Source of the DNA: a virus
IMG/VR virus record: IMGVR_UViG_3300030329_004107
Coordinates: 4,328 to 68,327 of that record
Direction: 5' to 3' (one strand)
Length of the DNA stretch: 64,000 nucleotides
The position numbers and the translations under genes were made by a program. Numbering within the stretch: position 1 is the stretch's first letter; each line of letters starts with the position of its first letter. Under the pieces are notes generated by a model, which worked only from the letters and a program-made list of their open reading frames with translations, made no database searches and had not been told where the DNA came from. Of this stretch, positions 25,360 through 38,400 are shown piece by piece.

Positions 25360-25693
25360 AATCTATCCTATACACAGCAGGTTGTGTGCCAAAATCATTA
25401 AACTTTTTTTATGAGACATTTACAGACGCGCTCCCCTTTTTTAGAAGTGCAAAATAGTCTGTCAGCAACACGTTGCGCGTGTTCCTCATTCCTTGCGTTA
25501 ACGAACCCAAGGGTGGCGTCTCCATCGAATGTGAGAACTTCAAATAATTTTTCTTTCTTCATCGTTTTCATCTTCTACCTCTTACACAGCAGGTTGTGTG
25601 CCAAGTTTCTATTCTGCTAGGCCAATGGCCCAACACAGGCCCAAGCCAATCACGGCGCAAGGTGCGGCGATAATTAAAATCTCGTTAATCATT

Positions 25694-25771
25694 TTATCCT
25701 TTCCTTAACTGGCTTGTCAGCCAGCAAAGCCAGAGCAGCGTCAAGCTAAATGCAAATAATGGTTCAATCAT
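25694..25771 (-). CDS. 25-aa membrane micro-protein MIEPLFAFSLTLLWLCWLTSQLRKG
   Basis: Paralog at 48094-48168 supports coding status. Confidence 0.5.
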   Translation of the reverse strand: MIEPLFAFSLTLLWLCWLTSQLRKG

Positions 25772-25947
25772 CTTTAGTCCCTGTCTTTCAGGTTGAGTGG
25801 AGCATTGAATTGGGCATCCCAACGGGCTTGCTCCTCGTCACGCTTTCTGTTGACTTCTTGCCTTGCTTTCATTGCAGCGAGCCATTCGTGTAGGTCGCTC
25901 TTGAACTCGTTTAGGTTTTCTTTGTTGTCTTTCATAATATCTACCTC

Positions 25948-26070
25948 TTACACAGCAGGATGCGTGCCAAGTTCGCGTTGCGTTTGTTCTAGCATTGCTT
26001 CTAGTTGGTCGAGTTGAGCGAGTGCCATCATCAAGGCTCGCTCTAGTTTGGCTTGTTCTTTGTCGTTCAT
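25948..26070 (-). CDS. 40-aa helical micro-protein MNDKEQAKLERALMMALAQLDQLEAML...
   Basis: Follows a sigma70-type promoter; paralog at ~27051-27183. Confidence 0.55.
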   Translation of the reverse strand: MNDKEQAKLERALMMALAQLDQLEAMLEQTQRELGTHPAV

Positions 26071-26139
26071 TGTTGTTATAAGATAGCACAAGATTGGCCA
26101 TTTGTCAAGGGGTAAAATGCATTTTTTTTCAAAAAAAGT

Positions 26140-26186
26140 TTGACACTTGGCACGGAGGCTGCTGCCGCCCCGCCGCACATTGTCAA
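26140..26186. repeat. 47-bp element copy 1 (TTGACACTTGGCACGG...GCACATTGTCAA)
   Basis: Directly visible repeat. Confidence 0.9.
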
Positions 26187-26301
26187 GGGGAAAGGGGAGT
26201 TTTTTTCGGTATGTTTTCAACCTTCCTGTGTTCCCCACACAGCCTTTCCTTTTCCTTTCGGTTCCCCGCTTCATTGCGAGAAATTATAAAATTATCACAT
26301 T

Positions 26302-26326
26302 AAAAAAAAGCCCGCTTTCGCGGGGT
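26302..26326 (-). terminator. Rho-independent terminator
   Basis: CCCGC-GAAA-GCGGG hairpin plus T-run. Confidence 0.7.
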
Positions 26327-26331
26327 GAGGT

Positions 26332-26547
26332 TTACAGAAGCTCGCGCTTCTCGACCCATTTGAGGTAGGCATCGGAGTGATAACCGCACCATTCTTGGTA
26401 CTGGTCATCATACTCGCGAATCTCCTCTTCCCTCACGCGGAAGGACTTGTCGCCATCGACGACCAGCCACTTGCCGTTGCGCGGCGAGGCGGCGACTACT
26501 CCGAGGTAGCCGTTGAGGTTTTCAACCTCCATACCTAATTCGATCAT
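26332..26547 (-). CDS. Hypothetical early protein
   Basis: ORF followed by a terminator. Confidence 0.5.
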   Translation of the reverse strand: MIELGMEVENLNGYLGVVAASPRNGKWLVVDGDKSFRVREEEIREYDDQYQEWCGYHSDAYLKWVEKRELL

Positions 26548-26597
26548 AATGATATTAAAAGGGCGCGATCTCCGAGGCCATCGCGCTGGCCCATATT

Positions 26598-26780
26598 CTA
26601 GTTTGCGTAAAATTCTTCGCTGGTCGGCATCATGTCGCGGAAGTCGTCCTCGATGTTTATAGTGCTTTCCTGCACTCTGGACGACATCGCGGCGGCGATG
26701 CGGTTGGCGTGGTCTTGGTCGGTGGCCCGCACAAATTCGCGTTGGCCGTTTACTTGAGTTTCAAAAATGTTGTCGTTCAT
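26598..26780 (-). CDS. Hypothetical early protein (MNDNIFETQ...)
   Basis: ATG right after a consensus TTGGCACACAACTTGC box. Confidence 0.5.
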   Translation of the reverse strand: MNDNIFETQVNGQREFVRATDQDHANRIAAAMSSRVQESTINIEDDFRDMMPTSEEFYAN

Positions 26781-26812
26781 ACCTATACACAGCAAGTTGT
26801 GTGCCAATTCAT

Positions 26813-27046
26813 TTAAAACTTTTCTACAAAAAATTCTTCGCCCCAAGCTTCCAAGTGAAATTCTTCTTTGGGCAACCATCCCATCCAGCCATCCGATGCA
26901 CGGACAAGCCACATCGGGGGAAAGGCATTGTCATTGCGACGTTCCAGAATGAAACCCTTTGCGCCATGCTCACGGATGCGGTTTTTGGTGCGCGTGGTGG
27001 CTTTGCTGTTGGGGCTGATTAAGATTCTTTGTCCTTCGATGTTCAT
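26813..27046 (-). CDS. Hypothetical early protein (MNIEGQRIL...)
   Basis: ATG right after a sigma54-type box. Confidence 0.5.
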   Translation of the reverse strand: MNIEGQRILISPNSKATTRTKNRIREHGAKGFILERRNDNAFPPMWLVRASDGWMGWLPKEEFHLEAWGEEFFVEKF

Positions 27047-27412
27047 ACTATTACAGAGCAGGATGCGTGCCAAGTTCGTTTTGTGTTTGCTCGACCATTG
27101 CTTCCACTTGGTCGAGTTGGGCGAGTGCCATCATAAAGGCTCGTTGCAGTTCGGCTTGTTGTTCTTCGTTCATCATCATGCATAGAGCATATCACAGAGG
27201 GTGGGACATCCGTAGTCCTACCTTTTGTTTTTCTTTTTCCACTCTTTCACGAGTTGCTTCACTGCTTCCACGGATTCCTTCCAGCGTTGCACGCGTCTTT
27301 CAACCTTGCGCTGCTGCTCTCTCTTTTGTTCTTCAGTCATCATGCGTATACTATAACACAGGGGGTGGGACATCCGCAGTCCTACCAAAAAGAAAGTTGA
27401 AAAAATTTTGCC

Positions 27413-27459
27413 TTGACACTTGGCACGGAGGCGGCTGCGGCCCCGCCGCACATTGTCAA
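27413..27459. repeat. 47-bp element copy 2
   Basis: Directly visible repeat. Confidence 0.9.
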
Positions 27460-27511
27460 GCCCCAATACCAAAAAAGCAAGACAACGTGGGCGAGGTTAG
27501 TATTTAATTAT

Positions 27512-27790
27512 TTAATATTCATCATCTTCCCATTTATAATCTATTGGTGGAAGCAATTCGTAAAGCTCCTCGCCTCTTTGAATGCTCAAAATGTATGGTT
27601 CAATTTCTGGAAGGTAAACGCTTCCCCATTCGTCTGCAAAACCCATGACGAAACCATAAGCAATTCCTTCGCTGTCTGTTTCGCCAAGGTAATATTCCCA
27701 GCCGTGTCGAGTGATAATGTGTTGGGCGACCTCGAATGGTTCGCCGCCATTCATGTGGATGATCTTGCGAGTTTTATGTAATGTTTTCAT
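27512..27790 (-). CDS. Hypothetical protein (DUF2958-like)
   Basis: AYGFVMG..DEWGSVYLPEI pattern. Confidence 0.45.
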   Translation of the reverse strand: MKTLHKTRKIIHMNGGEPFEVAQHIITRHGWEYYLGETDSEGIAYGFVMGFADEWGSVYLPEIEPYILSIQRGEELYELLPPIDYKWEDDEY

Positions 27791-27791
27791 A

Positions 27792-28022
27792 TTAGTTTAA
27801 TTCTGGTCTGGATGTAAAACCATGCGCTGCTTGCACTTGATTCGCTTGCTCGATTAGGTCTGGGCAAGCGTCCCAAGCCCATGCCGAGAACTCAAGAACG
27901 CTCTCGGTGTCTTCGAATTGCGGACTGTCTTTGACGCAATCCCACAGGTCAATGATGGCAATCCAATTGTTTTTATTCCATGTGGCCCATTCGGGCAGTT
28001 CGTTGATGGGTATGTTTTTCAT
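27792..28022 (-). CDS. Hypothetical protein
   Basis: ORF packed in tandem. Confidence 0.5.
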   Translation of the reverse strand: MKNIPINELPEWATWNKNNWIAIIDLWDCVKDSPQFEDTESVLEFSAWAWDACPDLIEQANQVQAAHGFTSRPELN

Positions 28023-28219
28023 TTTTTAGTTCCAGTTTTCTTGGAGGGCAACGACCTCTTTTTCTTCTTCTTCAGTAGGTTGTTTTACTCCGTCGCATAC
28101 TGCGTCGAGCAGCTTGAGAGTAGGCTTGTCAAAGTTCTCCACGGTGTTTTCCTCGTGGCTCCAATCGTTGTGTTCTTCAATCATCATATCTACCTCTTAC
28201 ACAGCAGGATGCGTGCCAA

Positions 28220-28408
28220 CTAGGGTTCTACTTTTCTCAAAAGGCTTTTCTGCATAACGAAATTCGCACCATGCTTTGCGTGAGGAGGAGTGTGCCATAC
28301 CCACACACGGCCCGTTACGGGGCGAGTCGGGTCAAGGTCATGGGTTACAATACCACGCCAACGCGGATTGTCACGGTGCTTTACTTTGTCGTCTACTTTA
28401 ATCTTCAT
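28220..28408 (-). CDS. Small SH3-like/hypothetical early protein
   Basis: KVDDKVKH...GIV pattern; follows a sigma54-type box. Confidence 0.45.
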   Translation of the reverse strand: MKIKVDDKVKHRDNPRWRGIVTHDLDPTRPVTGRVWVWHTPPHAKHGANFVMQKSLLRKVEP

Positions 28409-28647
28409 ATCTACCTCTTACACAGCAGGATGCGTGCCATCTTTAGTCTCTGTCTCTGATGTCATTACCATCGTTGTCGTTGTAATAACCCGACACGCCC
28501 CACTGCTTGTCGTAGTTGGGGAGGTTGTTCGTCACTGGTCGCACAGGGGGAAGCTCAGGCACGGGTACTTCCAATGCGGCTGCTTTTTTGGTTTCTTCTT
28601 TGTCTTTCATAATCTCTACCTATACACAGCAGGTTGTGTGCCAAGTT

Positions 28648-28926
28648 TTAGTCGCCGTGATAGTGGCCTTGCTTGTAATACTGAACCAATTCGTTGTTGC
28701 GGGATTCGGTCAATGCTTGATGCTCCCAGACATTGGAGTAGTGTCTATGCTTGAGGAAAAATTGCCCCTCGAAACAGGCAACCCATGTTTGGAGTTTGCT
28801 GGCCAATTCAATCGCCGCCTCAAGCCCTTCGTGAGACTTGGCGAAATAATGGCTTTCCTCGTTCTCATAATCGTACACGCAATAGTGCGGTGTGGTGTTT
28901 AATTGTTCTTCGTTCATTTTCATCAT
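28648..28926 (-). CDS. Hypothetical early protein
   Basis: ATG after the GGACTACGGATGTCCC promoter motif. Confidence 0.5.
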   Translation of the reverse strand: MMKMNEEQLNTTPHYCVYDYENEESHYFAKSHEGLEAAIELASKLQTWVACFEGQFFLKHRHYSNVWEHQALTESRNNELVQYYKQGHYHGD

Positions 28927-29183
28927 GTGATTAGTATAGCATAGGGGGTGGGACATCCGTAGTCCTAGTGACTTAATTCCCAAGCAATTTCTAGCTTGGC
29001 CCAGCTTCGATTAGTTGTGCCACGCTGGGCAGCGTGTTCAAGCTGACGGAAACGCAAATTCGCTTCATGCTTGGTTTTCTCCTTGCAAGCAAGGGCAACG
29101 TTCTCGGCGGTGGTGTTTTTCTTCGTGTTGTTTTTCATACCCTATACACAGCAGGATGCGTGCCAACCCATTGTTAAGGGGAA

Positions 29184-29260
29184 TGGTAGGCAAGGTGGGA
29201 CTCGAACCCACGACCCACGGTTTAGAAGACCGTTGCTCTATCCAACTGAGCTACTTGCCC
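29184..29260 (-). tRNA. tRNA-Arg(UCU)
   Basis: GGGCAAG acceptor stem, D-arm AGCTCAGTTGGATAGAGC, anticodon arm ACGGT-CTTCTAA-ACCGT, GGTTCGAGTCC T-arm, encoded CCA. Confidence 0.95.
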
Positions 29261-29314
29261 AAATCTGTTCCTATACACAGCAGGATGCGTGCCAACCTCG
29301 ACGCGAAAAAAAAC

Positions 29315-29361
29315 TTGACACTTGGCACGGAGGCCGCTGCCGCCCCAGCGCACATTGTCAA
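29315..29361. repeat. 47-bp element copy 3
   Basis: Directly visible repeat. Confidence 0.9.
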
Positions 29362-29419
29362 AAAAAAAGCGCCACAAAAAAGCAAAGGCGTGGCGGCTTA
29401 TTTGTTATTTGTTCCTTTC

Positions 29420-29614
29420 TTATTTCTTATTTAAATAGCTATCGGTTTCTTCTTCGGAAGCCATTCTCAAATTCTTTGCTTTTAATAGCTCCGGTTTGTT
29501 GTCGTGGTGAGTAACCCACACGCTAGAAGTGTTAGCCTTTGCTCTTGCTCGCCATACTTTACCGGAGGCTTCTTCCGCATAAAGGGAGCCGTTTTTAATA
29601 TGATTAATATTCAT
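29420..29614 (-). CDS. Hypothetical protein
   Basis: ORF with RBS AAAGGA. Confidence 0.5.
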   Translation of the reverse strand: MNINHIKNGSLYAEEASGKVWRARAKANTSSVWVTHHDNKPELLKAKNLRMASEEETDSYLNKK

Positions 29615-29817
29615 CAGTTATCCTTTCATCACTTGGGAAATGTGCGTCTATCTGGTCGGGGTAGATGTACGCTTCTTCTCCATCATCATCTGCAACCCAA
29701 TAGCCATCTTCACAAACCTCTTCTACTATGAATTGTTTTATTCCAATAACAATTAGGTCTTTCTCTTTTATCTTCATTGCTATAATTAGTTTATACTACG
29801 CTTTAAATTTAGTCAAG

Positions 29818-30015
29818 CTAAAATGTTCTATGTATCAAATCTTTTGGTGTGGTGGTTGGTGGTCGCCACCCTTGGTCGCACTTGCAATACTTCGGGCAAT
29901 CATCCTCTGCGCTTCCCTCTTTTGCCACCGTTTCGTGACAGGTGGGGCAAAGGAATAGTCGGCGCATCTGTGGGTAATCTCGGCAAAACTTTTTTGTCTT
30001 TGGCCCATACTTCAT
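29818..30015 (-). CDS. Small Cys-rich (Zn-binding) protein
   Basis: CPTC and CPKYC motifs; RBS AAGGAGG. Confidence 0.5.
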   Translation of the reverse strand: MKYGPKTKKFCRDYPQMRRLFLCPTCHETVAKEGSAEDDCPKYCKCDQGWRPPTTTPKDLIHRTF

Positions 30016-30025
30016 TTAATCCTCC

Positions 30026-30211
30026 TTACAGATAATCCTTACAGATAACGCGGCGCACAGCATCATGGTCAGGTGTGTAGGAATACTCTGTGTGAACCAA
30101 GTCACCCATACCATCCAACACTTCATTTACTGCATCTTGCTTGCTAATTGCTTCGACTTCAAACGTAGCGCAGTGAATCTCGTTTAATTCTACTTTGTAT
30201 AATCTTTTCAT
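30026..30211 (-). CDS. Hypothetical protein
   Basis: FEVEA.S..DA pattern common in small phage proteins. Confidence 0.5.
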   Translation of the reverse strand: MKRLYKVELNEIHCATFEVEAISKQDAVNEVLDGMGDLVHTEYSYTPDHDAVRRVICKDYL

Positions 30212-30212
30212 T

Positions 30213-30413
30213 TTAATCCTCCACTATGTCCATTCGTGCAACGGTGTTTCCGTTATGGTCTTGCGCTGTTACAAAGTCACCAGCATCAACCGCCATCATT
30301 CTTCCAGCGCGAGCCAACAACCTGTCTGTCACATTGTTCATTTCAAACAAGCGTTCCGCAGGAGTATCGCCAAACGCTTCGTTGCCTAGTTCAATTTTAA
30401 TTATAGCTTTCAT
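30213..30413 (-). CDS. Hypothetical protein
   Basis: IELGNEAF...DHNGNTV pattern; follows a sigma54-type box. Confidence 0.55.
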   Translation of the reverse strand: MKAIIKIELGNEAFGDTPAERLFEMNNVTDRLLARAGRMMAVDAGDFVTAQDHNGNTVARMDIVED

Positions 30414-30444
30414 TTGTATGTACGCAGCATGTTCCGTGCCAAGT

Positions 30445-30717
30445 TTACACTTGGGCTTGTGCTTTTACAATATCATCAAATTCCATCATGTGATATTCGT
30501 TCCCGCTTGTAAGGGAGGTTATGTGGTCGTTGTAGAGTGGCACTCGGCCTTCTCGGAGAGAGGCGATGTTTTTTAAATCCACCGCATCAAGTTCGGCGGC
30601 GAGAGTGTTTCTCCGTGTCCCATCATCCCATGTGCGTTGGTCTCGCTCCGCTATGTCTGCTTGAAGGCGACGGATGTGAGCGGAGAATAGTTCGTTTACT
30701 TTTTTGTCTTGTTCCAT
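30445..30717 (-). CDS. Hypothetical protein
   Basis: ORF. Confidence 0.5.
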   Translation of the reverse strand: MEQDKKVNELFSAHIRRLQADIAERDQRTWDDGTRRNTLAAELDAVDLKNIASLREGRVPLYNDHITSLTSGNEYHMMEFDDIVKAQAQV

Positions 30718-30751
30718 AATCTTTATAATGTTTCTATGTCAATGCTTTTTG

Positions 30752-31015
30752 TTAAAGTTTTTTAATGACGTTTATCCAATCTTGTACATCACTTTCATTC
30801 TGCCAACCTTTGACGGTATCACCCCAATCAGCAGGGTCAATCATATGATTGTTAAAGAATACGCCAATTTCATACAAACCTTTTTCGCTACCGTGAGAAA
30901 ACTTATGCTTCACCACGGAAACATCGTAGCCATTAGGTAATTCCACATACGCCTGAATCGCACCTTCTCCATGCGTTTCAGAGATGTCATCAAATTTTAA
31001 ATCTTCAAACTTCAT
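30752..31015 (-). CDS. Conserved-looking phage hypothetical protein
   Basis: PNGYDVSVV...GLYEIGV pattern. Confidence 0.55.
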   Translation of the reverse strand: MKFEDLKFDDISETHGEGAIQAYVELPNGYDVSVVKHKFSHGSEKGLYEIGVFFNNHMIDPADWGDTVKGWQNESDVQDWINVIKKL

Positions 31016-31220
31016 AGTGTTTCAATATAAATGCCTGTTAATATAATAACAATAAAAGACGCGATACCCACGCTAATTACAAAACATAAATCTCTATCGT
31101 CTTTCATAAAATTCTGAACCCTCGTTTTTTAGATGCTCTCCTGCATCACGGGTTCTCTCAAACAACTGACATAATATAGCACACAAAGGTCAGCTTGTCA
31201 AGGGGTGTAATGCATTTTTT

Positions 31221-31652
31221 TCATTTTCTGTACTTGTCTTCCCACCACCAAATACTGCTAGGCTCGGTGAGGTAGGCCCACACGCCATCTGTACGAATCT
31301 CAACGAACCACGCTTCTCTTACTGGAACGGACTCGTCCTCTACCAAAACAAAACTCTTATGTTTATAAGGGTTGTAAGTAATCTTCTGCCACGCGCAAAG
31401 CTCAATGCCGGTGCTGTAGTCATCAATCAGCGATTCCCGCATTCTCATGCCTTGAATGTAAGCGTGAACGTTTTTGCGCTTCTCGTCACGCACTCGCTGG
31501 TTGCCTTTCGGGCCTACCCTCAAGACGGGGCGACTTAACGCAATTTCTGTAACGTGGTCTACAACAATACCTTTGTCATTGCGAACACTATAAACCGATG
31601 TGCCTTCTTTGGTAGTTTTGTGTAGGTTGCGGTATACTTGTACTTTTTCCAT
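31221..31652 (-). CDS. Conserved-looking phage hypothetical protein
   Basis: VYRNLHK...KRKNVHAY...TYNPY; RBS GGAGG. Confidence 0.6.
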   Translation of the reverse strand: MEKVQVYRNLHKTTKEGTSVYSVRNDKGIVVDHVTEIALSRPVLRVGPKGNQRVRDEKRKNVHAYIQGMRMRESLIDDYSTGIELCAWQKITYNPYKHKSFVLVEDESVPVREAWFVEIRTDGVWAYLTEPSSIWWWEDKYRK

Positions 31653-31654
31653 GT

Positions 31655-31861
31655 TTAGTCCTCCTGCCCGCCAAAGATTCCGTCTTGGCAAGTCTGACAA
31701 TAAGCCGAAATGCCGTACTCTTTGCGGCTGAGTTCGTCGCGGAACTCAAGGTTGTACTGGCCGCACTTGACGCACTGGCCCGCAGCCAGCGCGATATTGC
31801 GGCTACGGCCAAATAGGTTTAGGCACATCGCCTCTTTCATGTCTTCTATCTCGTTTAACAT
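31655..31861 (-). CDS. Small Zn-finger protein
   Basis: CVKC...SRKEYGISAYCQTCQD. Confidence 0.6.
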   Translation of the reverse strand: MLNEIEDMKEAMCLNLFGRSRNIALAAGQCVKCGQYNLEFRDELSRKEYGISAYCQTCQDGIFGGQED

Positions 31862-31899
31862 AATAAAATATAGCACAGGTTGGTTGGTTTGTCAAGGGC

Positions 31900-32016
31900 T
31901 CAACCCCAATTTTTCTGATGTTTTTTCCGACGACGGAAAGAGCCTTTACCCTTCTTGACTTTATGCTCACGGGACGCGCTTCCCATGAACCCTTGTTTGT
32001 TTACTCTTGCTTTCAT
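31900..32016 (-). CDS. ArfA-like (alternative ribosome-rescue factor A) micro-protein, not in ORF track
   Basis: MKARVNKQGFMGSASREHKVKKGKGSFRRRKKHQKNWG; KKGKGS[F/Y]xR matches the conserved ArfA motif. Confidence 0.55.
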   Translation of the reverse strand: MKARVNKQGFMGSASREHKVKKGKGSFRRRKKHQKNWG

Positions 32017-32064
32017 ACCCTATACACAGCAGGTTGCGTGCCAACCTCGATGCGAAAAAAAAAC

Positions 32065-32111
32065 TTGACACTTGGCACGGCGGCGGCTGCCGCCCCAGCG
32101 CACATTGTCAA
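32065..32111. repeat. 47-bp element copy 4
   Basis: Directly visible repeat. Confidence 0.9.
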
Positions 32112-32219
32112 GAGGAATCGCCGCACCAGCGAAAAACAAAAAAACTGATGCGGCGATTATTTGTTGGATATTTATTTCTTATTTATTTATATTTGTTCTG
32201 CCCCTTCTATTTAATTATT

Positions 32220-32450
32220 CTATTGGCGAACTTGCGGCACAGGCGGCAGGGCCACGCTAACAAAGCCCTTCAGCTTTGCCGACAGCATATGTTCCAACAG
32301 AGGCTCGGCGGCCTTAATGTTGTAGATACGGTAGGCTTCGGCTTTCGCCTTGGCGTGAGACACACCCCGCTTCTTTTGAGCGATGATGTGATTTGTAACC
32401 TGCGCGGCCTTGACCGCGTTTTGGGCTTGGTAGGTTTTATATGTTTTCAT
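32220..32450 (-). CDS. Basic hypothetical protein
   Basis: ORF with RBS AAAGGA. Confidence 0.5.
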   Translation of the reverse strand: MKTYKTYQAQNAVKAAQVTNHIIAQKKRGVSHAKAKAEAYRIYNIKAAEPLLEHMLSAKLKGFVSVALPPVPQVRQ

Positions 32451-32533
32451 TGTCTTATCTTATCCTTTCTTTGTTGGCGATGTTAAAAATATAATTACTG
32501 TAAATACTACTAATAGAGCAAAGAGCATATCCA

Positions 32534-33271
32534 TTAAACCGCCTCCTTTGCTTTTCGTTTGAGTGCTTGCAAGGCTTGGCTTGCTATGCTGCCCTTGGGT
32601 TGTGTGCCGTGAATCAGCAGAGCAAAACTCTCTTTGCCAAATGCTGCATGAGAATCGTTATGGTCAATTTCCAAACCAAGCTCATCAGCTTCTTTTTCAC
32701 TGTAAACGACAACGGCTTCTTTCCAGCCGTGTAAGTCAATCAAATCATCATACTTGCCACCACGGGAGGCGGTCAACACAAGGTTTTCAGGCAAGGCAAA
32801 TTGCTTGAACAAATGCAAGCTCTTGCTGTAAGAGTAAAACACCTTGTCAGGGTTGCGCTTGGCTACTTCAATCCACGCTTGCAAATACTTGGCGTTGAAA
32901 TAATCGCCGCCAACGTGGACGCGCATAATGTCGAATTTTTTGGGCAAACTTTTTTCAATGAGGTCGGCGCAGGAGTCCGCGCCGTTTTTTAATGCTGCAC
33001 GAACTAATTCAAAATTGCTCCAAACCATTTGGCGTAACGAGGGATAGGTTGCTTCCGCACTAGCGGCGAAACATCTAAATTGCGTGTCAGGCCCATCTTG
33101 AATTTTACCCGTTTCTCTGTCTGCGCGGGATAAACAATCCTTTGCTGCGGGGCAAGTATGTCCTGCGGGGAGCGTAAATGTTTTGAGTTTTAAGCCTAGC
33201 TTTTTAACGAGCTTTTTGAGCTTGGAGTTCGGTTCTCCGAATTTTAACAGTTTGTCTTTCATGTCTTTCAT
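32534..33271 (-). CDS. Gene product 88-like Cys-containing phage protein
   Basis: NSKL...LPAGHTCP...C...CFA...RVHVGGDYF...FYSYSK. Confidence 0.65.
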   Translation of the reverse strand: MKDMKDKLLKFGEPNSKLKKLVKKLGLKLKTFTLPAGHTCPAAKDCLSRADRETGKIQDGPDTQFRCFAASAEATYPSLRQMVWSNFELVRAALKNGADSCADLIEKSLPKKFDIMRVHVGGDYFNAKYLQAWIEVAKRNPDKVFYSYSKSLHLFKQFALPENLVLTASRGGKYDDLIDLHGWKEAVVVYSEKEADELGLEIDHNDSHAAFGKESFALLIHGTQPKGSIASQALQALKRKAKEAV

Positions 33272-33315
33272 TCCTACAATATAGCATACTTTTCCCATTT
33301 GTCAAGGGCTGGAGG

Positions 33316-33822
33316 TCATTTTTCTAAAGAACTTTTTGCTTGGCCCCAACGCCCACCACCATCACCATCGACGCAACCATGCTCTTGCTTTTGCAAGAAC
33401 GCAAAACCAGCAGTTTCTTGCGCGTCGAATGGTTCTTGGTAAGGCTCATATAAAGAGTTGATTTTGATGCAGCGACCCTCACCCACTAGCGGTTCAAAAC
33501 TATCATATAATTCCTTGGCGATTACTTTCGCGGTGGGCATGGCCCCGCCTTTTACTTTTTTCCATGCTACGCTTCCAGCGTCATTTAATAGCTTAAACAA
33601 TGTTGCGTTTTCAATAGCTTTTAAAATTTTGTCGCGCCCTAAAACTTCTCCATCCCCACGCGCCCAAAAGGTTGCGCGAGTTGCGTTTTGCCATTCTAAT
33701 TCGCCGCTTGTTGCGCCATGATTCCAAAACGAATAAAACCGTTCTGTGATTTCTTGTTGATCGTCGCCTTCTAAAACTACTGCGGTGTCTTTGCCGTGAT
33801 GCTGTAACTTGGTTGTAATCAT
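33316..33822 (-). CDS. Hypothetical protein
   Basis: ATG 6 nt after the TATATT of a sigma70-type promoter. Confidence 0.55.
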   Translation of the reverse strand: MITTKLQHHGKDTAVVLEGDDQQEITERFYSFWNHGATSGELEWQNATRATFWARGDGEVLGRDKILKAIENATLFKLLNDAGSVAWKKVKGGAMPTAKVIAKELYDSFEPLVGEGRCIKINSLYEPYQEPFDAQETAGFAFLQKQEHGCVDGDGGGRWGQAKSSLEK

Positions 33823-33887
33823 ATAACAATATAGCACAAAATAGCTACTTGTCAAGGGGCCGAGGGTTTTTTTTGAAAAAAGTTTTT

Positions 33888-33934
33888 TTGACACTTGGCA
33901 CGGAGGCTGCTGCCGCCTCGCCGCACATTGTCAA
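33888..33934. repeat. 47-bp element copy 5
   Basis: Directly visible repeat. Confidence 0.9.
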
Positions 33935-33955
33935 GCCTTTTTTACGAACAAGGCA

Positions 33956-33986
33956 TAAAAAAAACCCCACCTTATTTGGCGGGGGT
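33956..33986 (-). terminator. Rho-independent terminator
   Basis: GC-rich hairpin plus T-run after the DUF932-like gene. Confidence 0.6.
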
Positions 33987-34001
33987 GATATTATTATTTA
34001 T

Positions 34002-34886
34002 TTATTCAGTAACAACCACGGCCTCGTTTTTCTCTGGAGTCCAGAGTTTATCAAGGGCAGTCGAGTCTGTCGCCGCCTTGGTGAACAGCTTGGTGATGTT
34101 GCTGTTCAGACGCTCACTCAGAACGAAATTGTTTTCTGCAACTTCATGCGTTGTGAATTGCGTTACCGCGTTTAGCAAGTTATACAGGTTGCGGTCTTCA
34201 TCTTCACCGTGAGTCGGATTGTTCCAAATCCGCGCCACACCTTCGCGGCGTGTTTCGGAAATGGTTCCTCTGTTGGTGAGGGACTGCAAAATGTTGATAC
34301 CTTGCTCCTGCGATACCTCGCGGGATGCCATCAGCGTAAATGGGTTATCGGGTTGGCCCAGATTCTCAAAGGCTTGCATGGCGTCTTTAATCGCCTTGAC
34401 AATGGTTTTGACGCTGAACTTGTTGGAGTGCTTGCAGGAAATGCCATGCTCTCTGTCTAGAGTGGTCATGCCATTGGTGCAAACCAAGCGCAAGGCTCCA
34501 CCAATAGTGCGAATGCGATGCGACAAGTCAAAAGAGTTGTCAACATCCATACGGAAGCCCAGAGTGTCGCCTACCTTGGGAATTTTCACCACAGTGTCCT
34601 TGAACTCGTAACGAGTTTTAAAACGCGCTCCGCCTCCCATGACGTAATGCGTTTCGTTGGTTGGTTCAATGCCAAGGTCGGCAAAGACATTACGCACTGG
34701 TTCCATTACCTCGCGGTTCTGAACCACGTTGTAATCCTTGGACACTCCTACTTTGAGGATAGTCCCGTTGTCCACACGGCGCGTCATAAACGAGCCTGTA
34801 TCTTTGCCCTCTGGAGTGAAGACGGGAACCTTTTCCACATCATAGTCCCAGTTGGAGTTAATTGCATGAGTTGCTGTACGAGCCAT
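34002..34886 (-). CDS. DUF932/DUF945-family phage protein
   Basis: YNVVQN, NSFD, RLVCTNG, LYNLLNAVT..TH. Confidence 0.8.
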   Translation of the reverse strand: MARTATHAINSNWDYDVEKVPVFTPEGKDTGSFMTRRVDNGTILKVGVSKDYNVVQNREVMEPVRNVFADLGIEPTNETHYVMGGGARFKTRYEFKDTVVKIPKVGDTLGFRMDVDNSFDLSHRIRTIGGALRLVCTNGMTTLDREHGISCKHSNKFSVKTIVKAIKDAMQAFENLGQPDNPFTLMASREVSQEQGINILQSLTNRGTISETRREGVARIWNNPTHGEDEDRNLYNLLNAVTQFTTHEVAENNFVLSERLNSNITKLFTKAATDSTALDKLWTPEKNEAVVVTE

Positions 34887-35016
34887 TTTTTTATCTTTCT
34901 TTTTAGGTTTCTTCTTATCGTTTAATTATAGTACAATATAGCACACATTCGGGATTTGTCAAGGGGCCGAGGTCATTTTTTTTATTTTTTTTTCTTCTGA
35001 TAATTAAAGTTTTTGT

Positions 35017-35062
35017 TTGACAAAATTGGCGAGGCGGGAGCGGCCCCGGCGCACATTGTCAA
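35017..35062. repeat. Degenerate 46-bp copy of the element
   Basis: TTGACAAAATTGGCG...GCGCACATTGTCAA. Confidence 0.7.
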
Positions 35063-35268
35063 GCACTTTTTTTAGATTTTTTTAATTATAATAGTACTTA
35101 TTTGTTTAATATTTATTTACCATTTATTTGTTCATTATTTAGTCCTTATTTGTTTGTTATTTATTTGTCATTTATTTATAAGTAATTCACTTGCAAGTTA
35201 ATATAAAAATACCCCCGGCAGGAACGTTACAAAACCGCCGAGGGTACTTTGTTATGGTTGGCTCCCAC

Positions 35269-35556
35269 TCAGGAGCGCTTCTTTTTTGGACGGCCTCGTG
35301 GTCTGGCAGAGACGACAGTTACCGGATTTCCGAGTTCATCCAAAGCTTGATATCCATTCCATTCGAATTGATCGCCTACCGGAGATAGAGCACGGGTCCG
35401 CGAGGTCTCTGGCCCCAACCACGTCACTGTACCTGCTGTGCCCTCTAAGGTATCAAAGTCCTTTACGGCGACGGTGGCATTCTGGTTGCTCGGGGTATCG
35501 ATCCGTGCATGCGTAGCGCCCTTCGGTGGGCGGGGAATGACTAGTTCTTTTGACAT
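35269..35556 (-). CDS. Hypothetical protein with an AT-hook-like C-terminus
   Basis: RPRGRPKKKR; start overlaps the RuvB-like stop. Confidence 0.5.
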   Translation of the reverse strand: MSKELVIPRPPKGATHARIDTPSNQNATVAVKDFDTLEGTAGTVTWLGPETSRTRALSPVGDQFEWNGYQALDELGNPVTVVSARPRGRPKKKRS

Positions 35557-36536
35557 TATTTTGGTAATTTAATTTTAGTTGGCGCGGGCTTGTCAACTTG
35601 CTTGAGGTACTTTTGCCCCTTGGCGGTTAGTGCGCGTCCCGCAGTTGTAATCTCCATGAGACTCTGCTTCTGAAGATACATCTCGAAATCACGCTGCAAG
35701 CAGGACTTGGTTAATCCTGTTTTAGCGGCGAGGTAAGTCAAAGAGCAATCTTTCTTCTCGGAAAGAATCTGCAAGACTTGATGCTCGATAGGAGACAAAC
35801 CCAGAGGCATAATAGCCAGAGAATGTTTCATGTTGTCCCAATCTTGTCTGGAGAAATGAGTCTTATCTTTACCAGCGAGATAGGTACGAATGTTGTTCGC
35901 CATCTTCTGAGCAGCGCGAGCATTGCCGCGCAGCACGGTGGCAATATCAGCAGTTAGACCATCATCAAAGGTGAAGTCAGCGCAGACACGGTTAACAATC
36001 TCTCCGAGTTGGTCGTAAGTATATTCCTCAAGGTCAACACGCTCACACCTGTCCATCAAGGCGTGGAAGATGTGTTGAGCTTCGGTGGTGGCGAACATGA
36101 ATGTCTGCCGAGAGAAGTCAAAATCGACAGTGTAATCCTCGCAAGAGAAGGTGGTGCGATTCTCCGAATTAGGATTCAAGATAGTCAGCAACGCCATCGT
36201 CAGGTCTTTGGGCAGTTCGGATGCCTCATCAAACAAGACGGTAACTTCCTTGTGATTAATGTGAGGAATAACCACTTGGTTGAAGAACTGCTTTACGCTC
36301 TTGAGAGTCGAGCAGTTTAGCTCGATAAAAGTCTTTGTTTTTTCGCTACCACGGCGATTCAAGTGCTTGCCTGTTGCTTTGGCGAGCATGGTTTTGCCGC
36401 ACCCTTTGGGGGCCACGAACATGATGTGCGGGCAGATGTTGTTGCCTTTGTAACCGTCAAGATAAAAGTCGAGTCGGCGTTTTGCCTTGTCTTGGCCCAC
36501 GATGTTAGACCAGCGTTCAGTAGGATTTGTCGTCAT
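35556..36536 (-). CDS. ruvB: RuvB-like AAA+ ATPase
   Basis: IVGQ, APKGCGKT, LFDE, FATT, RGNAR, C-terminal wHTH-like FEMYL...TAGRALT. Confidence 0.7.
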   Translation of the reverse strand: MTTNPTERWSNIVGQDKAKRRLDFYLDGYKGNNICPHIMFVAPKGCGKTMLAKATGKHLNRRGSEKTKTFIELNCSTLKSVKQFFNQVVIPHINHKEVTVLFDEASELPKDLTMALLTILNPNSENRTTFSCEDYTVDFDFSRQTFMFATTEAQHIFHALMDRCERVDLEEYTYDQLGEIVNRVCADFTFDDGLTADIATVLRGNARAAQKMANNIRTYLAGKDKTHFSRQDWDNMKHSLAIMPLGLSPIEHQVLQILSEKKDCSLTYLAAKTGLTKSCLQRDFEMYLQKQSLMEITTAGRALTAKGQKYLKQVDKPAPTKIKLPK

Positions 36537-36542
36537 AATTCT

Positions 36543-36571
36543 AATATAGCACACGCTTTAGGTTTTGTCAA
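36543..36571 (-). promoter_or_regulatory. Consensus sigma70 promoter TTGACA-N17-TATATT with extended TG (one of ~15 copies)
   Basis: TTGACAAAACCTAAAGCGTGTGCTATATT. Similar copies near 26090, 31185, 31880, 33290, 33840, 34950, 36875, 37530, 39495, 42525, 45870, 50525, 53530 and 57460. Confidence 0.8.
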
Positions 36572-36580
36572 CCCCTTAAT

Positions 36581-36856
36581 TTACCATTCGTCACCCAAGT
36601 CAGACACCACCAACTTCACCTCTGTCTCTGGTTCTTCAACGAGGTTTTCGATCTTGAGATCGACTTGATTAGCTAACGACTCAATATTCTTGGTCGTGGC
36701 AGCGACAGGCTCGCCAGCAAGCTGAAGTTGCTCCGCATAGCGGCGCGAAACCATTACGGTTGCGTTGGGTTTTAGAACACCATTGAGTGCGCCTAACGAT
36801 ACGGCGACGAAACTGACTGCTCCCTTTGTTCTTCCAGATTTTCCTTTTCTCGGCAT
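36581..36856 (-). CDS. Hypothetical protein, basic N-terminus
   Basis: ATG 6 nt after the -10 box. Confidence 0.55.
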   Translation of the reverse strand: MPRKGKSGRTKGAVSFVAVSLGALNGVLKPNATVMVSRRYAEQLQLAGEPVAATTKNIESLANQVDLKIENLVEEPETEVKLVVSDLGDEW

Positions 36857-36920
36857 AAGAACAATATAGCACACGCTTTACGGGTTGTCAATAGATATTT
36901 TAATTTATTTTTAAATACAA

Positions 36921-37391
36921 TCAAATAAAATCTTTATCTGGTTTTAAGTCATTGTATATATGAATTTTTAAATAATAAGATTTAATGTCAGCAAAGGAAG
37001 GAAATTGTCCTGCACAATCTGTATCTTCTAGGAAGTCTGTTACGTGCATATCGTCTATGTGCGACTCTGCGACAATATAATAAATATCATTTTTATTGAT
37101 TGCAAATATACCGCGCCCAATATATCTAATATTATTTTTATATTTTGGATAATATTGTTTTAAATGATCTATGAAGATATTCGGGTCGGGCTGACCATCT
37201 TCAAATAGTTGGCACTGATCACTGTTCCAAGTTGCCTTGGCATCAGTTAAGGTTTTGTCAGGAACCTTGTCAGTGAACACGGCGTCAACCTTATGCGTCA
37301 TCGCGAGGGGGCGTCCATCCTTCGCACTGTCCAAGCTCGATGATCTCTTTCGTGACCTCGTTAGATACGCGCTCCCACGCAGCGTGGTCAT
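36921..37391 (-). CDS. Hypothetical protein (true start probably ~37301)
   Basis: ORF. Confidence 0.45.
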   Translation of the reverse strand: MTTLRGSAYLTRSRKRSSSLDSAKDGRPLAMTHKVDAVFTDKVPDKTLTDAKATWNSDQCQLFEDGQPDPNIFIDHLKQYYPKYKNNIRYIGRGIFAINKNDIYYIVAESHIDDMHVTDFLEDTDCAGQFPSFADIKSYYLKIHIYNDLKPDKDFI

Positions 37392-37509
37392 CTAGGTAGC
37401 CTGTGATAATCTCTCGTTTCCACGGCGCGAGCTTATTCACTACATAATTGAACGCCTGTTCGTAGCGGGCCGCTTGGCCGGTTGGTTCAGGTAAGGTTTT
37501 TTTATTCAT
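37291..37509 (-). CDS. Hypothetical protein
   Basis: ORF after a sigma70-type promoter and GGAG. Confidence 0.5.
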   Translation of the reverse strand: MNKKTLPEPTGQAARYEQAFNYVVNKLAPWKREIITGYLDDHAAWERVSNEVTKEIIELGQCEGWTPPRDDA

Positions 37510-37549
37510 AACAACTCCATACTATCACACGCTTTAAAAGGCGTCAAGC

Positions 37550-38400
37550 CTCAAGTTTCTATTATAATATTACATTAAAATACCATAACAGAATATAAAA
37601 AACATTCTTTATTTACATTATAAGATTAAACAACAATAAAATTGATAAAAAGTCATAAAAAAACACAAAAAGGGCCGAAAATATTAATTAATTTTTATTC
37701 TTTTAATATCAGATTATTGGTGACAATGTGCAGCGGGTACAAGTTTACTCGGCGCACATTGTCGAGGGGCTTCAAAGAGGCGGTTCCGCGCAATATTTGA
37801 CATTATTTTATTAGTAATTATTAATAAATATTTCGGCCAGAATCATTCACAATTAAAGCCATATTATTAGATATAAAAAAATTATTTTATTCGGCGGGTA
37901 GGCGGGATATTTTATTGAATTAATATATTTCGAGCAAATTCATTCACAATTATTTCACATTATTTCATTCACAATTATTAATAATATTTGATTCAATATC
38001 ATTCACAATTATATTAATCTAATTTATCTTTGTCTTTGTATGCAAGCCAAAGGGTCGCGCCTAACATCAATGCCATCGGCGTCCCAATGAATATTAATAA
38101 AATCAATATTTCATCTTTCATTATTCATAATTACACTATCATACAATATAATATAATTACTATAAATGGCACATAAAGGTATATAATAAATTAATTAATA
38201 AAGTATTTGACAAAAATATATAAAAGTGCCACACCCATCCCACACAACGCCCCACACTCCCCCACACCACGCGCCGTATTATATATATTTAAATTTAATT
38301 ATATTCCTAATCATTATTCTTTATATTCCCTATACTGAATTGATTAATAATACAAAAAAATTCCCCAAAAAATGAGGAATTTAGTCTCTATCTCTGCCTA
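37550..38400. other. AT-rich, mostly non-coding region with four TCATTCACAATTA direct repeats (candidate origin or genome-end region)
   Basis: Repeats start at 37843, 37940, 37965 and 37999; inverted GACAATGTGC/GCACATTGTC at 37722-37763. Confidence 0.5.

What the first reader, a model, noticed from the sequence alone, without database searches (positions are those of the whole stretch)
26140..37765. Periodic 47-bp element with TTGACA inverted ends and an embedded antisense sigma54 box
Seen: TTGACACTTGGCACGGMGGC-(GC-rich)-GCACATTGTCAA, exactly 47 bp, at 26140, 27413, 29315, 32065 and 33888. A 46-bp variant is at 35017, and two inverted GCACATTGTC half-sites are at 37722-37763. Copies are intergenic, 1.1-2.8 kb apart, flanked by A/T tracts, and at least two sit beside terminators. 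The ends are two inward-facing perfect -35 hexamers with no -10. GG-N10-GC is kept in all five full copies, pointing against gene direction. Inference: fixed length with a variable centre suggests a protein-binding scaffold. Options are an RNAP/sigma54 trap or roadblock, an activator enhancer for the neighbouring sigma54 promoters, a DNA-entry pacing signal, or a cassette recombination site. I do not recognise it as a described element.
Basis: partly seen in the sequence, partly recalled or inferred. Interest (0 to 1): 0.85.

Follow-up and report, generated by a model that had tools for sequence, protein, structure and literature searches.

The report
Sigma-54-like boundary repeat between phage genes
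An uncultured marine phage separates its early gene units with a 47-base repeat that is a one-sided version of a palindrome shared by many related phages and that looks like a docking site for the host's sigma-54 RNA polymerase, but what binds it is untested.

Summary
There are five 47-bp copies with identical ends, a 46-bp variant and a perfect inverted repeat of the second half-site, all intergenic on a phage contig whose genes run on the minus strand. The element is not a host REP/MITE or an Rfam family. It is a lineage-specific, one-armed variant of a phage-only palindrome, TTGGCACG-N6-GCWGC-N6-CGTGCCAA. I found 64 distinct copies of that palindrome on 20 viral contigs and no real copy in 185,579 prokaryote genomes. 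In gene direction the layout is: gene or tRNA end, often with its own terminator, then the element, A/T tracts, a promoter of any class, and a near-leaderless ATG. This is the architecture of PeSL cassettes in T4-type phages. The core shows no compensatory changes. The gap to the downstream -35 comes in steps of 10 bp. In a relative, the intact arm can face either way. I therefore read the element as a DNA-level protein docking site, most likely for host sigma-54 RNA polymerase held on an unmeltable GC core. The weak points are a variable -14 base, lineages that lack the GG, and no identified binder. Strain variants recombine mainly at the repeated promoters. This scan noted the same family earlier on other genomes.

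The parts
26140..26186 (+). 47-bp element, copy 1. The sigma-54-like arm TTGGCACG is read on the + strand; TGGCAC-N6-TGC is present.
27413..27459 (+). 47-bp element, copy 2. The -14 base is G, so there is no TGC.
29315..29361 (+). 47-bp element, copy 3. The -14 base is C. On the gene strand it is followed by T8 and a sigma-54-type promoter.
32065..32111 (+). 47-bp element, copy 4. The -14 base is G. On the gene strand it is followed by T9 and a sigma-54-type promoter.
33888..33934 (+). 47-bp element, copy 5. TGGCAC-N6-TGC is present.
35017..35062 (+). 46-bp variant. The left arm is degenerate (TTGGCGAG) and the right end is identical to the other copies.
37720..37765 (.). Perfect inverted repeat of the second half-site (GACAATGTGC / GCACATTGTC, 22-bp spacer), at the head of the early region.
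26080..26108 (-). Sigma-70-type promoter (TTGACA-17-TATCTT with TGn). It starts 38 nt after the inner arm of copy 1.
27353..27386 (-). Third-class promoter (GGTAGGAC...GTCCCACC plus TGn-TATAGT). It starts 33 nt after the inner arm of copy 2.
   Evidence: relatives
29280..29294 (-). Sigma-54-type promoter 27 nt after the inner arm of copy 3; it precedes tRNA-Arg.
29184..29260 (-). tRNA-Arg (TCT).
32029..32043 (-). Sigma-54-type promoter 28 nt after the inner arm of copy 4; an ATG lies 12 nt after the -12 C.
33828..33855 (-). Sigma-70-type promoter (TTGACA-16-TATATT) 39 nt after the inner arm of copy 5.
34935..34962 (-). Sigma-70-type promoter 63 nt after the inner arm of the 46-bp variant.
33965..33984 (-). 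Canonical terminator hairpin plus T8 of the upstream DUF932 gene. It lies between that gene and copy 5.
26311..26324 (-). Canonical terminator hairpin plus T8, about 125 nt upstream of copy 1 in gene direction.

Best explanation
The 47-bp element is this phage lineage's one-armed version of a phage-specific palindrome, TTGGCACG-N6-GCWGC-N6-CGTGCCAA. It forms the upstream boundary module of PeSL-like regulatory cassettes: gene end, element, A/T tracts, promoter, leaderless ATG.

I think it works on double-stranded DNA as a protein docking site, not as an RNA hairpin. The most likely ligand is the host's sigma-54 RNA polymerase. That enzyme would bind the -24/-12-like arm as a stable closed complex and could not open the very GC-rich core. 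The parked complex would then act, in either orientation, as an insulator or architectural partner in helical register with the next promoter.

Shown: the family, its layout, the absence of pairing constraint, the 10-bp quantised spacing in relatives, and the sequence identity with the phage's own sigma-54-type promoters. Inferred: that a protein binds. Speculative: that the protein is sigma-54 polymerase, and what the binding achieves.
For: 1. Sequence-specific conservation without structure.
- Five copies have invariant ends of 16 and 13 bp and vary at 6 central positions.
- 0 of 15 predicted pairs show a compensatory change.
- RNA fold z-scores are only -0.75 to -1.86 on the gene strand.
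- In 38 distinct oriented palindromes of relatives, the filler columns do not covary. For example, positions 9/25 are C-C 10 times, G-G 6 times and C-G once.

2. A phage-only family. The perfect-arm pattern occurs on 20 viral contigs in 34 loci, with 64 distinct copies. In 185,579 prokaryote genomes there were 2 hits. One lies inside a gene and looks like chance; the other is a contig of the same phage family binned into a MAG.

3. Match to sigma-54 promoters.
- The arm is the -24 box TTGGCACG.
- The central GCWGC puts GC-W at the -13/-12/-11 positions on both strands.
- In copies 1 and 5 the arm plus CTGCTG equals the window's 12 gene-strand sigma-54-type promoters through about -9.
- Those 12 promoters place the ATG 12-20 nt after the -12 C.

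4. The element is not the main terminator. Separate canonical terminators lie upstream of three copies. In relatives no U-run follows the palindrome.

5. Helical register with the next promoter.
- Of 52 oriented copies, 35 have a recognisable -35/-10 downstream.
- Their gaps cluster at 29-31 (6 copies), 39-42 (15), 47-51 (5), 59 (1) and 69-70 (5) nt.
- After collapsing similar spacers, 25 of 28 lie within 1 nt of a multiple of 10, with Rayleigh R = 0.80 at period 10.
- In the window the inner arm ends 38 and 39 nt before two sigma-70 -35 boxes and 27 and 28 nt before two sigma-54 boxes.

6. Orientation independence: in L018 the intact arm faces forward twice, backward twice and both ways twice.

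7. No phage-encoded sigma-54 was found in four records, one of them 96% complete. The factor would therefore be the host's.
Against: 1. The T at -14, which I recall as strongly conserved in sigma-54 promoters, is not kept.
- It is T in 2 of 5 window copies.
- It is T>C in the dominant strain of three metagenomes at 26160.
- In relatives it is T in 25 of 52 forward arms and 7 of 52 reverse arms.

2. Related lineages keep the same position, GC-rich core and about 45-47 bp length without a GG-bearing arm.
- L013 and L024 have TTGACA, a G-run/C-run hairpin, then TGTCAA.
- L014 has GGTAGTTGC arms.
- L020 and L021 have a different palindrome.

3. The window's second arm, GACAATGTGC, is not sigma-54-like. 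It is nevertheless invariant in 6 copies and forms its own perfect inverted repeat at 37722-37763. That pattern suits a dimeric regulator better.

4. No activator is evident. The sigma-54 activator family (PF00158) gives only a weak Walker-A match to a RuvB-like AAA+ protein that has no GAFTGA motif.

5. The host is unknown, so the presence of sigma-54 in it is assumed.

6. The 10-bp quantisation may partly reflect modular A-tract units, and the copies are related by descent.

7. The 46-bp variant has a gap of 63 nt and is out of register.
Confidence: 0.35

Rival explanations
1. The element is an operator for a dimeric DNA-binding regulator, phage-encoded or host. The regulator would bind the two half-sites upstream of early promoters, switch them up or down, possibly loop between the 6-14 copies per genome, and co-evolve with the arms.
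For: - The element has dyad symmetry with a fixed arm spacing and a conserved central pentamer.
- Its distance to the -35 is quantised in 10-bp steps.
- Function appears orientation-independent.
- Arm sequences differ between lineages while the architecture stays the same.
- The window's second half-site occurs as a perfect inverted repeat at 37722-37763.
- The -14 base is free to vary.
Against: - No candidate protein emerged. Ten small early ORFs gave no DNA-binding Pfam domain, and PHROGs gave nothing for five unassigned neighbouring ORFs.
- The exact 8-of-8 match to the sigma-54 -24 box, with GC-W at the correct spacing, would be a coincidence in a phage that also uses sigma-54-type gene promoters.
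- Arms are identical across phages whose AAA+ proteins are only 54-71% identical.
Confidence: 0.25
2. The element is the stem-loop of a PeSL-type cassette acting on RNA. It would be a terminator, attenuator or 3' end stabiliser for the upstream gene, and its sequence conservation would come from copy-and-paste of cassettes.
For: - It occupies the position of PeSL stem-loops, just upstream of an AT-rich region and a promoter (PMC4122927, text read; PMC2839356, passages read). One such stem-loop was tested there as a terminator.
- On the gene strand the window copies can fold (-18 to -28 kcal/mol). T6-T9 runs follow in 5 of 6 copies, directly behind the stem in copies 3 and 4.
- Relatives L013 and L024 have perfect G-run/C-run hairpins in the same place.
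- In relatives the palindrome follows tRNA 3' ends by 2 nt.
Against: - Folding is barely better than shuffles (z -0.75 to -1.86).
- There are no compensatory changes.
- In the perfect palindromes the stem is 8-10 bp with a 17-nt loop and no U-run behind it.
- Separate canonical terminators already stand upstream of three window copies.
- The central W is A or T with no strand bias (28 versus 24 of 52).
- Quantised spacing to the downstream promoter is not expected for an RNA element.
Confidence: 0.2
3. The element is an activator-dependent antisense sigma-54 promoter. When sigma-54 transcription is switched on, each element would fire back into the 3' end of the upstream early gene, with a predicted start about 12 nt after the -12 C (for example near 26174 and 33922). 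That would shut the gene down by antisense RNA or polymerase collision.
For: Copies 1 and 5 carry the full TGGCAC-N6-TGC box, identical to the gene promoters through about -9. All six window copies face the same way, against the genes.
Against: - Three of 5 copies lack the T at -14, and strains vary there.
- The region to be melted is almost pure G+C.
- In L018 the intact arm faces either way.
- Most relatives are symmetric (84 of 99 boxes have both arms).
- No activator was found.
Confidence: 0.07
4. The element is a dedicated recombination site, attC-like or a recombinase target, at which gene cassettes are inserted, lost or swapped.
For: - Strain variants differ by whole cassettes.
- Two joints abut or enter elements. 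32117 to 29182 lies 6 nt outside copy 4. 34967 to 32072 lies 7 nt inside copy 4, in one run at depth 5.5.
- One strain lacks 29263-29401, which holds copy 3 and its promoter.
- The PeSL authors speculated that their stem-loop could be a recombination target (PMC2839356, passage read).
Against: - Most well-supported joints lie in repeated promoters or at ORF starts, with 7-14 nt of shared sequence. Examples are 29156 to 32035, 27198 to 27363, 28409 to 28615 and 30010 to 30207. That pattern fits ordinary homologous recombination.
- No tyrosine recombinase was found in four records, one of them 96% complete.
- The replacement at 26301/26607 has no element at either end.
Confidence: 0.05

Closest known systems
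PeSL (promoter-early stem-loop) cassettes of T4-type phages RB49/phi1, PST/T4 and nt-1/KVP40 (PMC2839356, passages read; PMC4122927, parts 1-2 of the text read)
   Same: Both are repeated intergenic modules in regions of small accessory genes. In both, a GC-rich stem-loop lies just upstream of an AT-rich tract, followed by a strong promoter and the start codon. Variants with another promoter class exist there (PmSL) and here (sigma-54 and third-class promoters). Recombination between copies reshuffles cassettes in both (here).
   Different: Here the 'stem-loop' is a 33-47 bp sequence-conserved quasi-palindrome whose core does not need to pair. It carries sigma-54-type -24/-12 boxes and, in this window, inward -35 hexamers. 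It stands beside separate canonical terminators and keeps a 10-bp register with the promoter. The phages are not T4-type: the terminase is at most about 25% identical to any cultured phage.
Bacterial sigma-54 (RpoN) -24/-12 promoters and non-productive sigma-54 binding sites (PMC4591121, only the start of the abstract seen in a search listing), and sigma-54 use by Pseudomonas phage YuA (bioRxiv 10.1101/2023.10.13.562163, one passage read)
   Same: Sigma-54 polymerase can sit on DNA in a transcriptionally inactive state (PMC4591121 abstract). [quoted passage not shown]
   Different: In relatives two boxes overlap head to head in one palindrome. The -15/-14 Ts are mostly missing, the region to be melted is GC-rich, no enhancer or activator is evident, and the sites sit upstream of promoters of other classes.
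Stoperators of cluster A mycobacteriophages such as L5 (recalled, no paper read here)
   Same: Both are many dispersed copies of one short site in intergenic gaps of a phage genome. The stoperators are thought to block transcription by a bound protein.
   Different: As I recall them, stoperators are 13-bp asymmetric sites bound by the immunity repressor of temperate phages, and their action depends on orientation. Here the element is longer and dyad-like, orientation varies between relatives, and no repressor is known.
Bacterial REP/BIME extragenic palindromes (recalled)
   Same: Both are GC-rich imperfect palindromes of about 35-45 bp at gene ends, present in many copies.
   Different: This element is absent from cellular genomes. 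The only 2 hits among 185,579 genomes were one chance match and one phage contig. No Rfam family matches, and no RAYT-type transposase was seen.

Membership tests
PeSL-like composite regulatory cassette | A repeated intergenic module: a stem-loop-capable GC-rich sequence directly upstream of an AT-rich tract and a promoter, followed by a start codon. | tested here: met
   Six of 6 window copies are followed by A/T runs and a promoter 27-63 nt on. Relatives have the same layout.
PeSL-like composite regulatory cassette | The stem-loop acts as a transcription terminator for the upstream gene. | tested here: inconclusive
   Folding is weak (z -0.75 to -1.86). T-runs follow 5 of 6 copies, but separate canonical terminators stand upstream of 3. 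No RNA data were available.
PeSL-like composite regulatory cassette | Indels and swaps between close relatives map to the repeated modules. | tested here: met
   Strain contigs show cassette-sized joints with 7-14 nt overlaps in the repeated promoters, and two joints next to or inside elements.
Sigma-54 (-24/-12) promoter or binding site | GG and GC separated by 10 bases within TGGCAC-N5-TTGCW. | tested here: inconclusive
   TTGGCACG and GG-N10-GC are present in 5 of 5 full copies. The T before GC is present in only 2 of 5, and TT at -15/-14 in none.
Sigma-54 (-24/-12) promoter or binding site | Bound by sigma-54 holoenzyme. | not testable with these tools
   This needs EMSA, footprinting or ChIP. 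The host is unknown.
Sigma-54 (-24/-12) promoter or binding site | An enhancer-binding AAA+ activator is available. | tested here: not met
   PF00158 gives only a weak Walker-A match to a RuvB-like protein in 3 relatives and nothing in the window's record. That protein has no GAFTGA motif. A host activator remains possible.
Intrinsic (Rho-independent) terminator | A stable GC-rich hairpin with a short loop, immediately followed by a U-run. | tested here: not met
   The consensus scan did not call any full element. Stems are interrupted. Relatives have 17-nt loops and no U-run.
Host REP/MITE or known RNA family | Copies in cellular genomes, or a match to a curated family. | tested here: not met
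   Rfam at gathering thresholds finds only the tRNA. The palindrome pattern has no genuine cellular copy. The window-specific ends had no related hit in viral contigs.
Integron attC-type recombination site | A tyrosine recombinase partner, and junctions inside the site. | tested here: not met
   No PF00589 match in four records. Most joints lie outside the element.
Enhancer (UAS) of the neighbouring sigma-54 promoters | Co-occurrence with sigma-54 promoters that it serves. | tested here: not met
   G001 has 7 palindromes and no gene-type sigma-54 promoter. In the window 2 of 12 promoters adjoin an element.

The most novel reading that the evidence does not exclude
A large clade of uncultured aquatic phages plants dozens of high-affinity, non-openable docking sites for host sigma-54 RNA polymerase at the borders of its early gene cassettes, in helical register with the next promoter. 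The parked host enzyme would serve as a programmable insulator or architectural element, or the sites would act as a sponge that withdraws sigma-54 from host stress and defence regulons. The window's lineage has made the site one-sided and moved true sigma-54 promoters directly in front of leaderless micro-genes.
Probability: 0.3. Interest if true: 0.85.

Novelty: new variant of a known kind. Interest (0 to 1): 0.62.

Why it matters
Sigma-54 is rarely linked to phage biology. The only case I found in print is phage YuA. If host sigma-54 polymerase is parked on these repeats, that would be a new way for a virus to partition transcription units or to disarm sigma-54-dependent host responses.

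The phages involved appear to be common. This stretch is held by 20 DNA runs from 10 marine, estuary and freshwater studies.

Even if the binder proves to be something else, two results stand. PeSL-type cassette architecture now reaches beyond T4-type phages. And the element is a sharply defined, sequence-specific boundary with a 10-bp register that can be tested directly with simple reporters.

Tried and rejected
- Exact ends in other viral contigs. The 16-mer left end gave 10 loci, none carrying the rest of the element. The right-end pattern gave one unrelated 59%-GC contig. The inverted-repeat pattern gave none.
- My first IUPAC pattern for the whole element was one base too long and found nothing, not even the window's copies. 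It is not evidence.
- A megablast of 26000-38000 against GenBank phages hit only the tRNA. Protein searches found no cultured relative above about 25-37% identity.
- A sigma-70 reading of the 'sigma-54-type' gene promoters was rejected. TTGGCA to TATAGG is 14 nt, and a start 7 nt after TATAGG would fall beyond the ATG (from the sequences).
- A phage-encoded sigma-54 was not found, nor a clear activator or a tyrosine recombinase.
- RNA evidence: no RNA holder was listed for this stretch, so expression, 3' ends and antisense starts could not be examined.
- In the contig lay-out only 40 of 608 substitutions were printed, so I could not compare substitution density inside and outside the elements.
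- ORF-vote orientation failed for 12 of the 64 palindromes, which were dropped. It also misjudged some window copies because of spurious plus-strand ORFs in GC-rich DNA. For the window I used the gene map instead.
- Of the 52 oriented copies, 17 had no -35/-10 match to my simple pattern within 110 nt and were left out of the distance count.
- Literature searches for a description of such elements or of phage sigma-54 use found only the PeSL papers and the YuA passage. Supplements were not consulted.
- I did not fold the RuvB-like AAA+ protein or test any complex.

Full report
**Observation.** The 16-base left end occurs exactly five times, always on the + strand, at 26140, 27413, 29315, 32065 and 33888. 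Shuffles give 0.39 matches at up to 3 mismatches. The 12-base right end occurs exactly six times. Together they define five 47-bp copies and a 46-bp variant at 35017. The two inverted 10-bp half-sites lie at 37722-37731 and 37754-37763, and that stretch is a strong hairpin (z about -4.7). The five full copies differ at only six central positions.

**Setting.** The window is 64 kb of a 68,327-bp IMG/VR virus record estimated 39% complete. It encodes a terminase, rIIA, rIIB, a four-region sigma-70-family factor, PhoH and a RuvB-like AAA+ protein, almost all on the minus strand. No cultured phage is close. On the gene strand I see three promoter classes.
- Near-consensus sigma-70 promoters.
- Twelve sigma-54-type boxes, TGGCAC-N6-TGC, between 25391 and 32043. 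Fifteen matches were found in the window against 0.28 expected. Each lies 12-20 nt before an ATG or, in one case, before tRNA-Arg.
- A third class built on a GGTAGGAC...GTCCCACC quasi-palindrome.

**Anatomy on the gene strand.** Read in gene direction, each element follows the end of a gene. A/T runs come next, then a promoter. The promoter is sigma-70-type after copies 1 and 5 and the variant, sigma-54-type after copies 3 and 4, and third-class after copy 2. Three copies have a separate canonical terminator just upstream, so the element is not the main terminator. As RNA it folds little better than shuffled sequence (z -0.75 to -1.86). The consensus structure of the six copies has 0 of 15 pairs with a compensatory change.

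**The family.** I found relatives through the AAA+ protein: 15 loci at 54-71% identity. Several carry, in the same place downstream of that gene, a 33-bp palindrome, TTGGCACG-N6-GCWGC-N6-CGTGCCAA.
- A scan of IMG/VR for that exact pattern found 34 loci on 20 contigs, with 64 distinct copies and up to 14 per contig.
- The same scan of one genome for each of 185,579 prokaryote species found two hits. One lies inside a gene and looks like chance; the other is a contig of this phage family binned into a MAG.
- A 162-kb relative that is 96% complete has seven copies, all between 6.3 and 15.1 kb, and no gene-type sigma-54 promoter.

The window's element aligns to this family in its + orientation. 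The left arm, the filler and the central GCTGC match, but the right arm is replaced by GCACATTGTC, and perfect TTGACA/TGTCAA hexamers frame the whole. Other relatives keep the frame and the 45-47 bp length but have G-run/C-run hairpin cores (L013, L024). Still others use different arms (L014, L020, L021). The window-specific arms were not found elsewhere.

**Architecture and register.** In gene direction, relatives show a gene or tRNA 3' end (often a terminator whose T-run abuts the palindrome), the palindrome, 8-10 nt, an A-run and a T-run, a TTGACT -35, a TGn-extended -10, and a near-leaderless ATG.
- Of the 64 copies, 52 could be oriented.
- Of those 52, 35 had a recognisable promoter within 110 nt. 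Their gaps cluster at about 30, 40, 50, 60 and 70 nt.
- After merging similar spacers, 25 of 28 gaps lie within 1 nt of a multiple of 10, with R = 0.80 at period 10 against 0.25-0.31 at periods 8, 12 and 13.

The copies share descent and the spacers are built from A-tract units, so this overstates independence. Even so, spacers of quite different content keep the register. In the window the gaps are 38 and 39 nt to sigma-70 boxes, 27 and 28 nt to sigma-54 boxes, and 63 nt for the variant.

**Symmetry and orientation.** The central W is A in 28 and T in 24 of the 52 oriented copies. The fillers do not covary. The right filler is conserved as CCGCCC in gene direction, and the -14 base is T in 25 of 52 forward arms but only 7 of 52 reverse arms. 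All genes in L018 are on one strand, yet the intact arm faces forward twice, backward twice and both ways twice. The uniform antisense orientation in the window is therefore probably inherited with the cassette and not required.

**The sigma-54 link.**
- For: the arm is the -24 consensus; GC-W sits at the right distance on both strands of the palindrome; copies 1 and 5 equal the phage's own sigma-54-type promoters through about -9; and a host factor would explain identical arms in diverged phages.
- Against: the -14 T is dispensable; several lineages lack the GG; the window's second arm has its own perfect repeat; and no activator or phage sigma-54 was found.

**Population data.** The stretch is held by 20 DNA runs from 10 studies. 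Contigs from four runs show a dominant strain a few percent diverged. The only listed substitution inside an element is T>C at 26160, the -14 position. Small indels lie in the flanking A/T runs. Cassette-sized joints fall mostly in repeated promoters with 7-14 nt of overlap: 29156 to 32035, 27198 to 27363, 28409 to 28615 and 30010 to 30207. One arrangement places the tRNA 3' end 8 nt before an element, as in relatives.

**Comparison with what is known.** The layout is that of PeSL cassettes (PMC2839356, PMC4122927). The differences are the sequence-specific, non-pairing core, the sigma-54-type boxes, the separate terminators and the helical register. Phage use of sigma-54 is reported for YuA (one passage of 10.1101/2023.10.13.562163). 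My searches found no description of such palindromes.

Earlier notes of this scan describe the same family on other genomes and reached similar readings. I saw them only after my own analysis. They gave me the YuA lead.

**Verdict.** This is a real, conserved, phage-specific boundary element. It is best read as a DNA-level docking site within PeSL-like cassettes, with host sigma-54 polymerase the leading but unproven ligand.

Noticed in passing
window 25377-32043, minus strand: Twelve sigma-54-type promoters (TGGCAC-N6-TGC followed by TGTGTATAGG or TGTGTAAGAGG) each sit 12-20 nt before the ATG of a 38-100 aa ORF, so the transcripts would be leaderless or nearly so. Relative L014 has 16 such promoters in 8 kb.
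   Followed up: partly
window 33855-33822, 26108-26070, 36571-36536, minus strand: Near-consensus sigma-70 promoters also place the ATG only 5-9 nt after the -10 box, so leaderless translation seems to be the rule in this phage.
   Followed up: no
window 27386-27353 and 27228-27194; L012, L018, L044, G001 around 15.1 kb: A third promoter class (GGTAGGAC...GTCCCACC plus TGn-TATAGT) is conserved across relatives. In the dominant natural strain a 164-bp deletion lies between two copies of it (27198 to 27363).
   Followed up: partly
window 35556-36554, minus strand: A 332-aa RuvB-like AAA+ protein with a C-terminal winged helix and no GAFTGA motif sits just upstream of the element array in the window and in the relatives examined. 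Relatives were found with this protein, so the association is biased.
   Followed up: partly
window 29184-29260 and strain contigs: tRNA-Arg (TCT) lies under a sigma-54-type promoter. In the dominant strain of three metagenomes it sits instead directly upstream of an element, 8 nt away. In relatives, tRNA 3' ends abut the palindrome by 2 nt.
   Followed up: partly
L040 12226 and 12773, L046 657 and 1892, L057: A second small palindrome module (TGTATGCA-TTT-TGCATACA type, about 30 bp) is inserted between the sigma-54-like palindrome and the promoter in some relatives. It lengthens the spacer by about 30 bp and so keeps the helical register.
   Followed up: no
L020 11239-20752 and L021 11372-17714: These relatives have a different boundary module: TTGACA, a G6-CCC-G-C6-type hairpin and a near-perfect 18-bp palindrome (TAGTACGTACACGTACTA type), repeated about nine times.
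   Followed up: no
window 37800-38050: An AT-rich 1.2-kb gap between rIIB and the early genes holds direct repeats of a TGTGAATGA-type word next to the perfect inverted repeat of the element's second half-site. It could be an origin or the control region of the early block.
   Followed up: no
window 693-1652, minus strand: A GC-rich ORF is made of short repeated units (CCAGCGGGACC type), which suggests a collagen-like Gly-X-Y repeat protein, perhaps a fibre.
   Followed up: no
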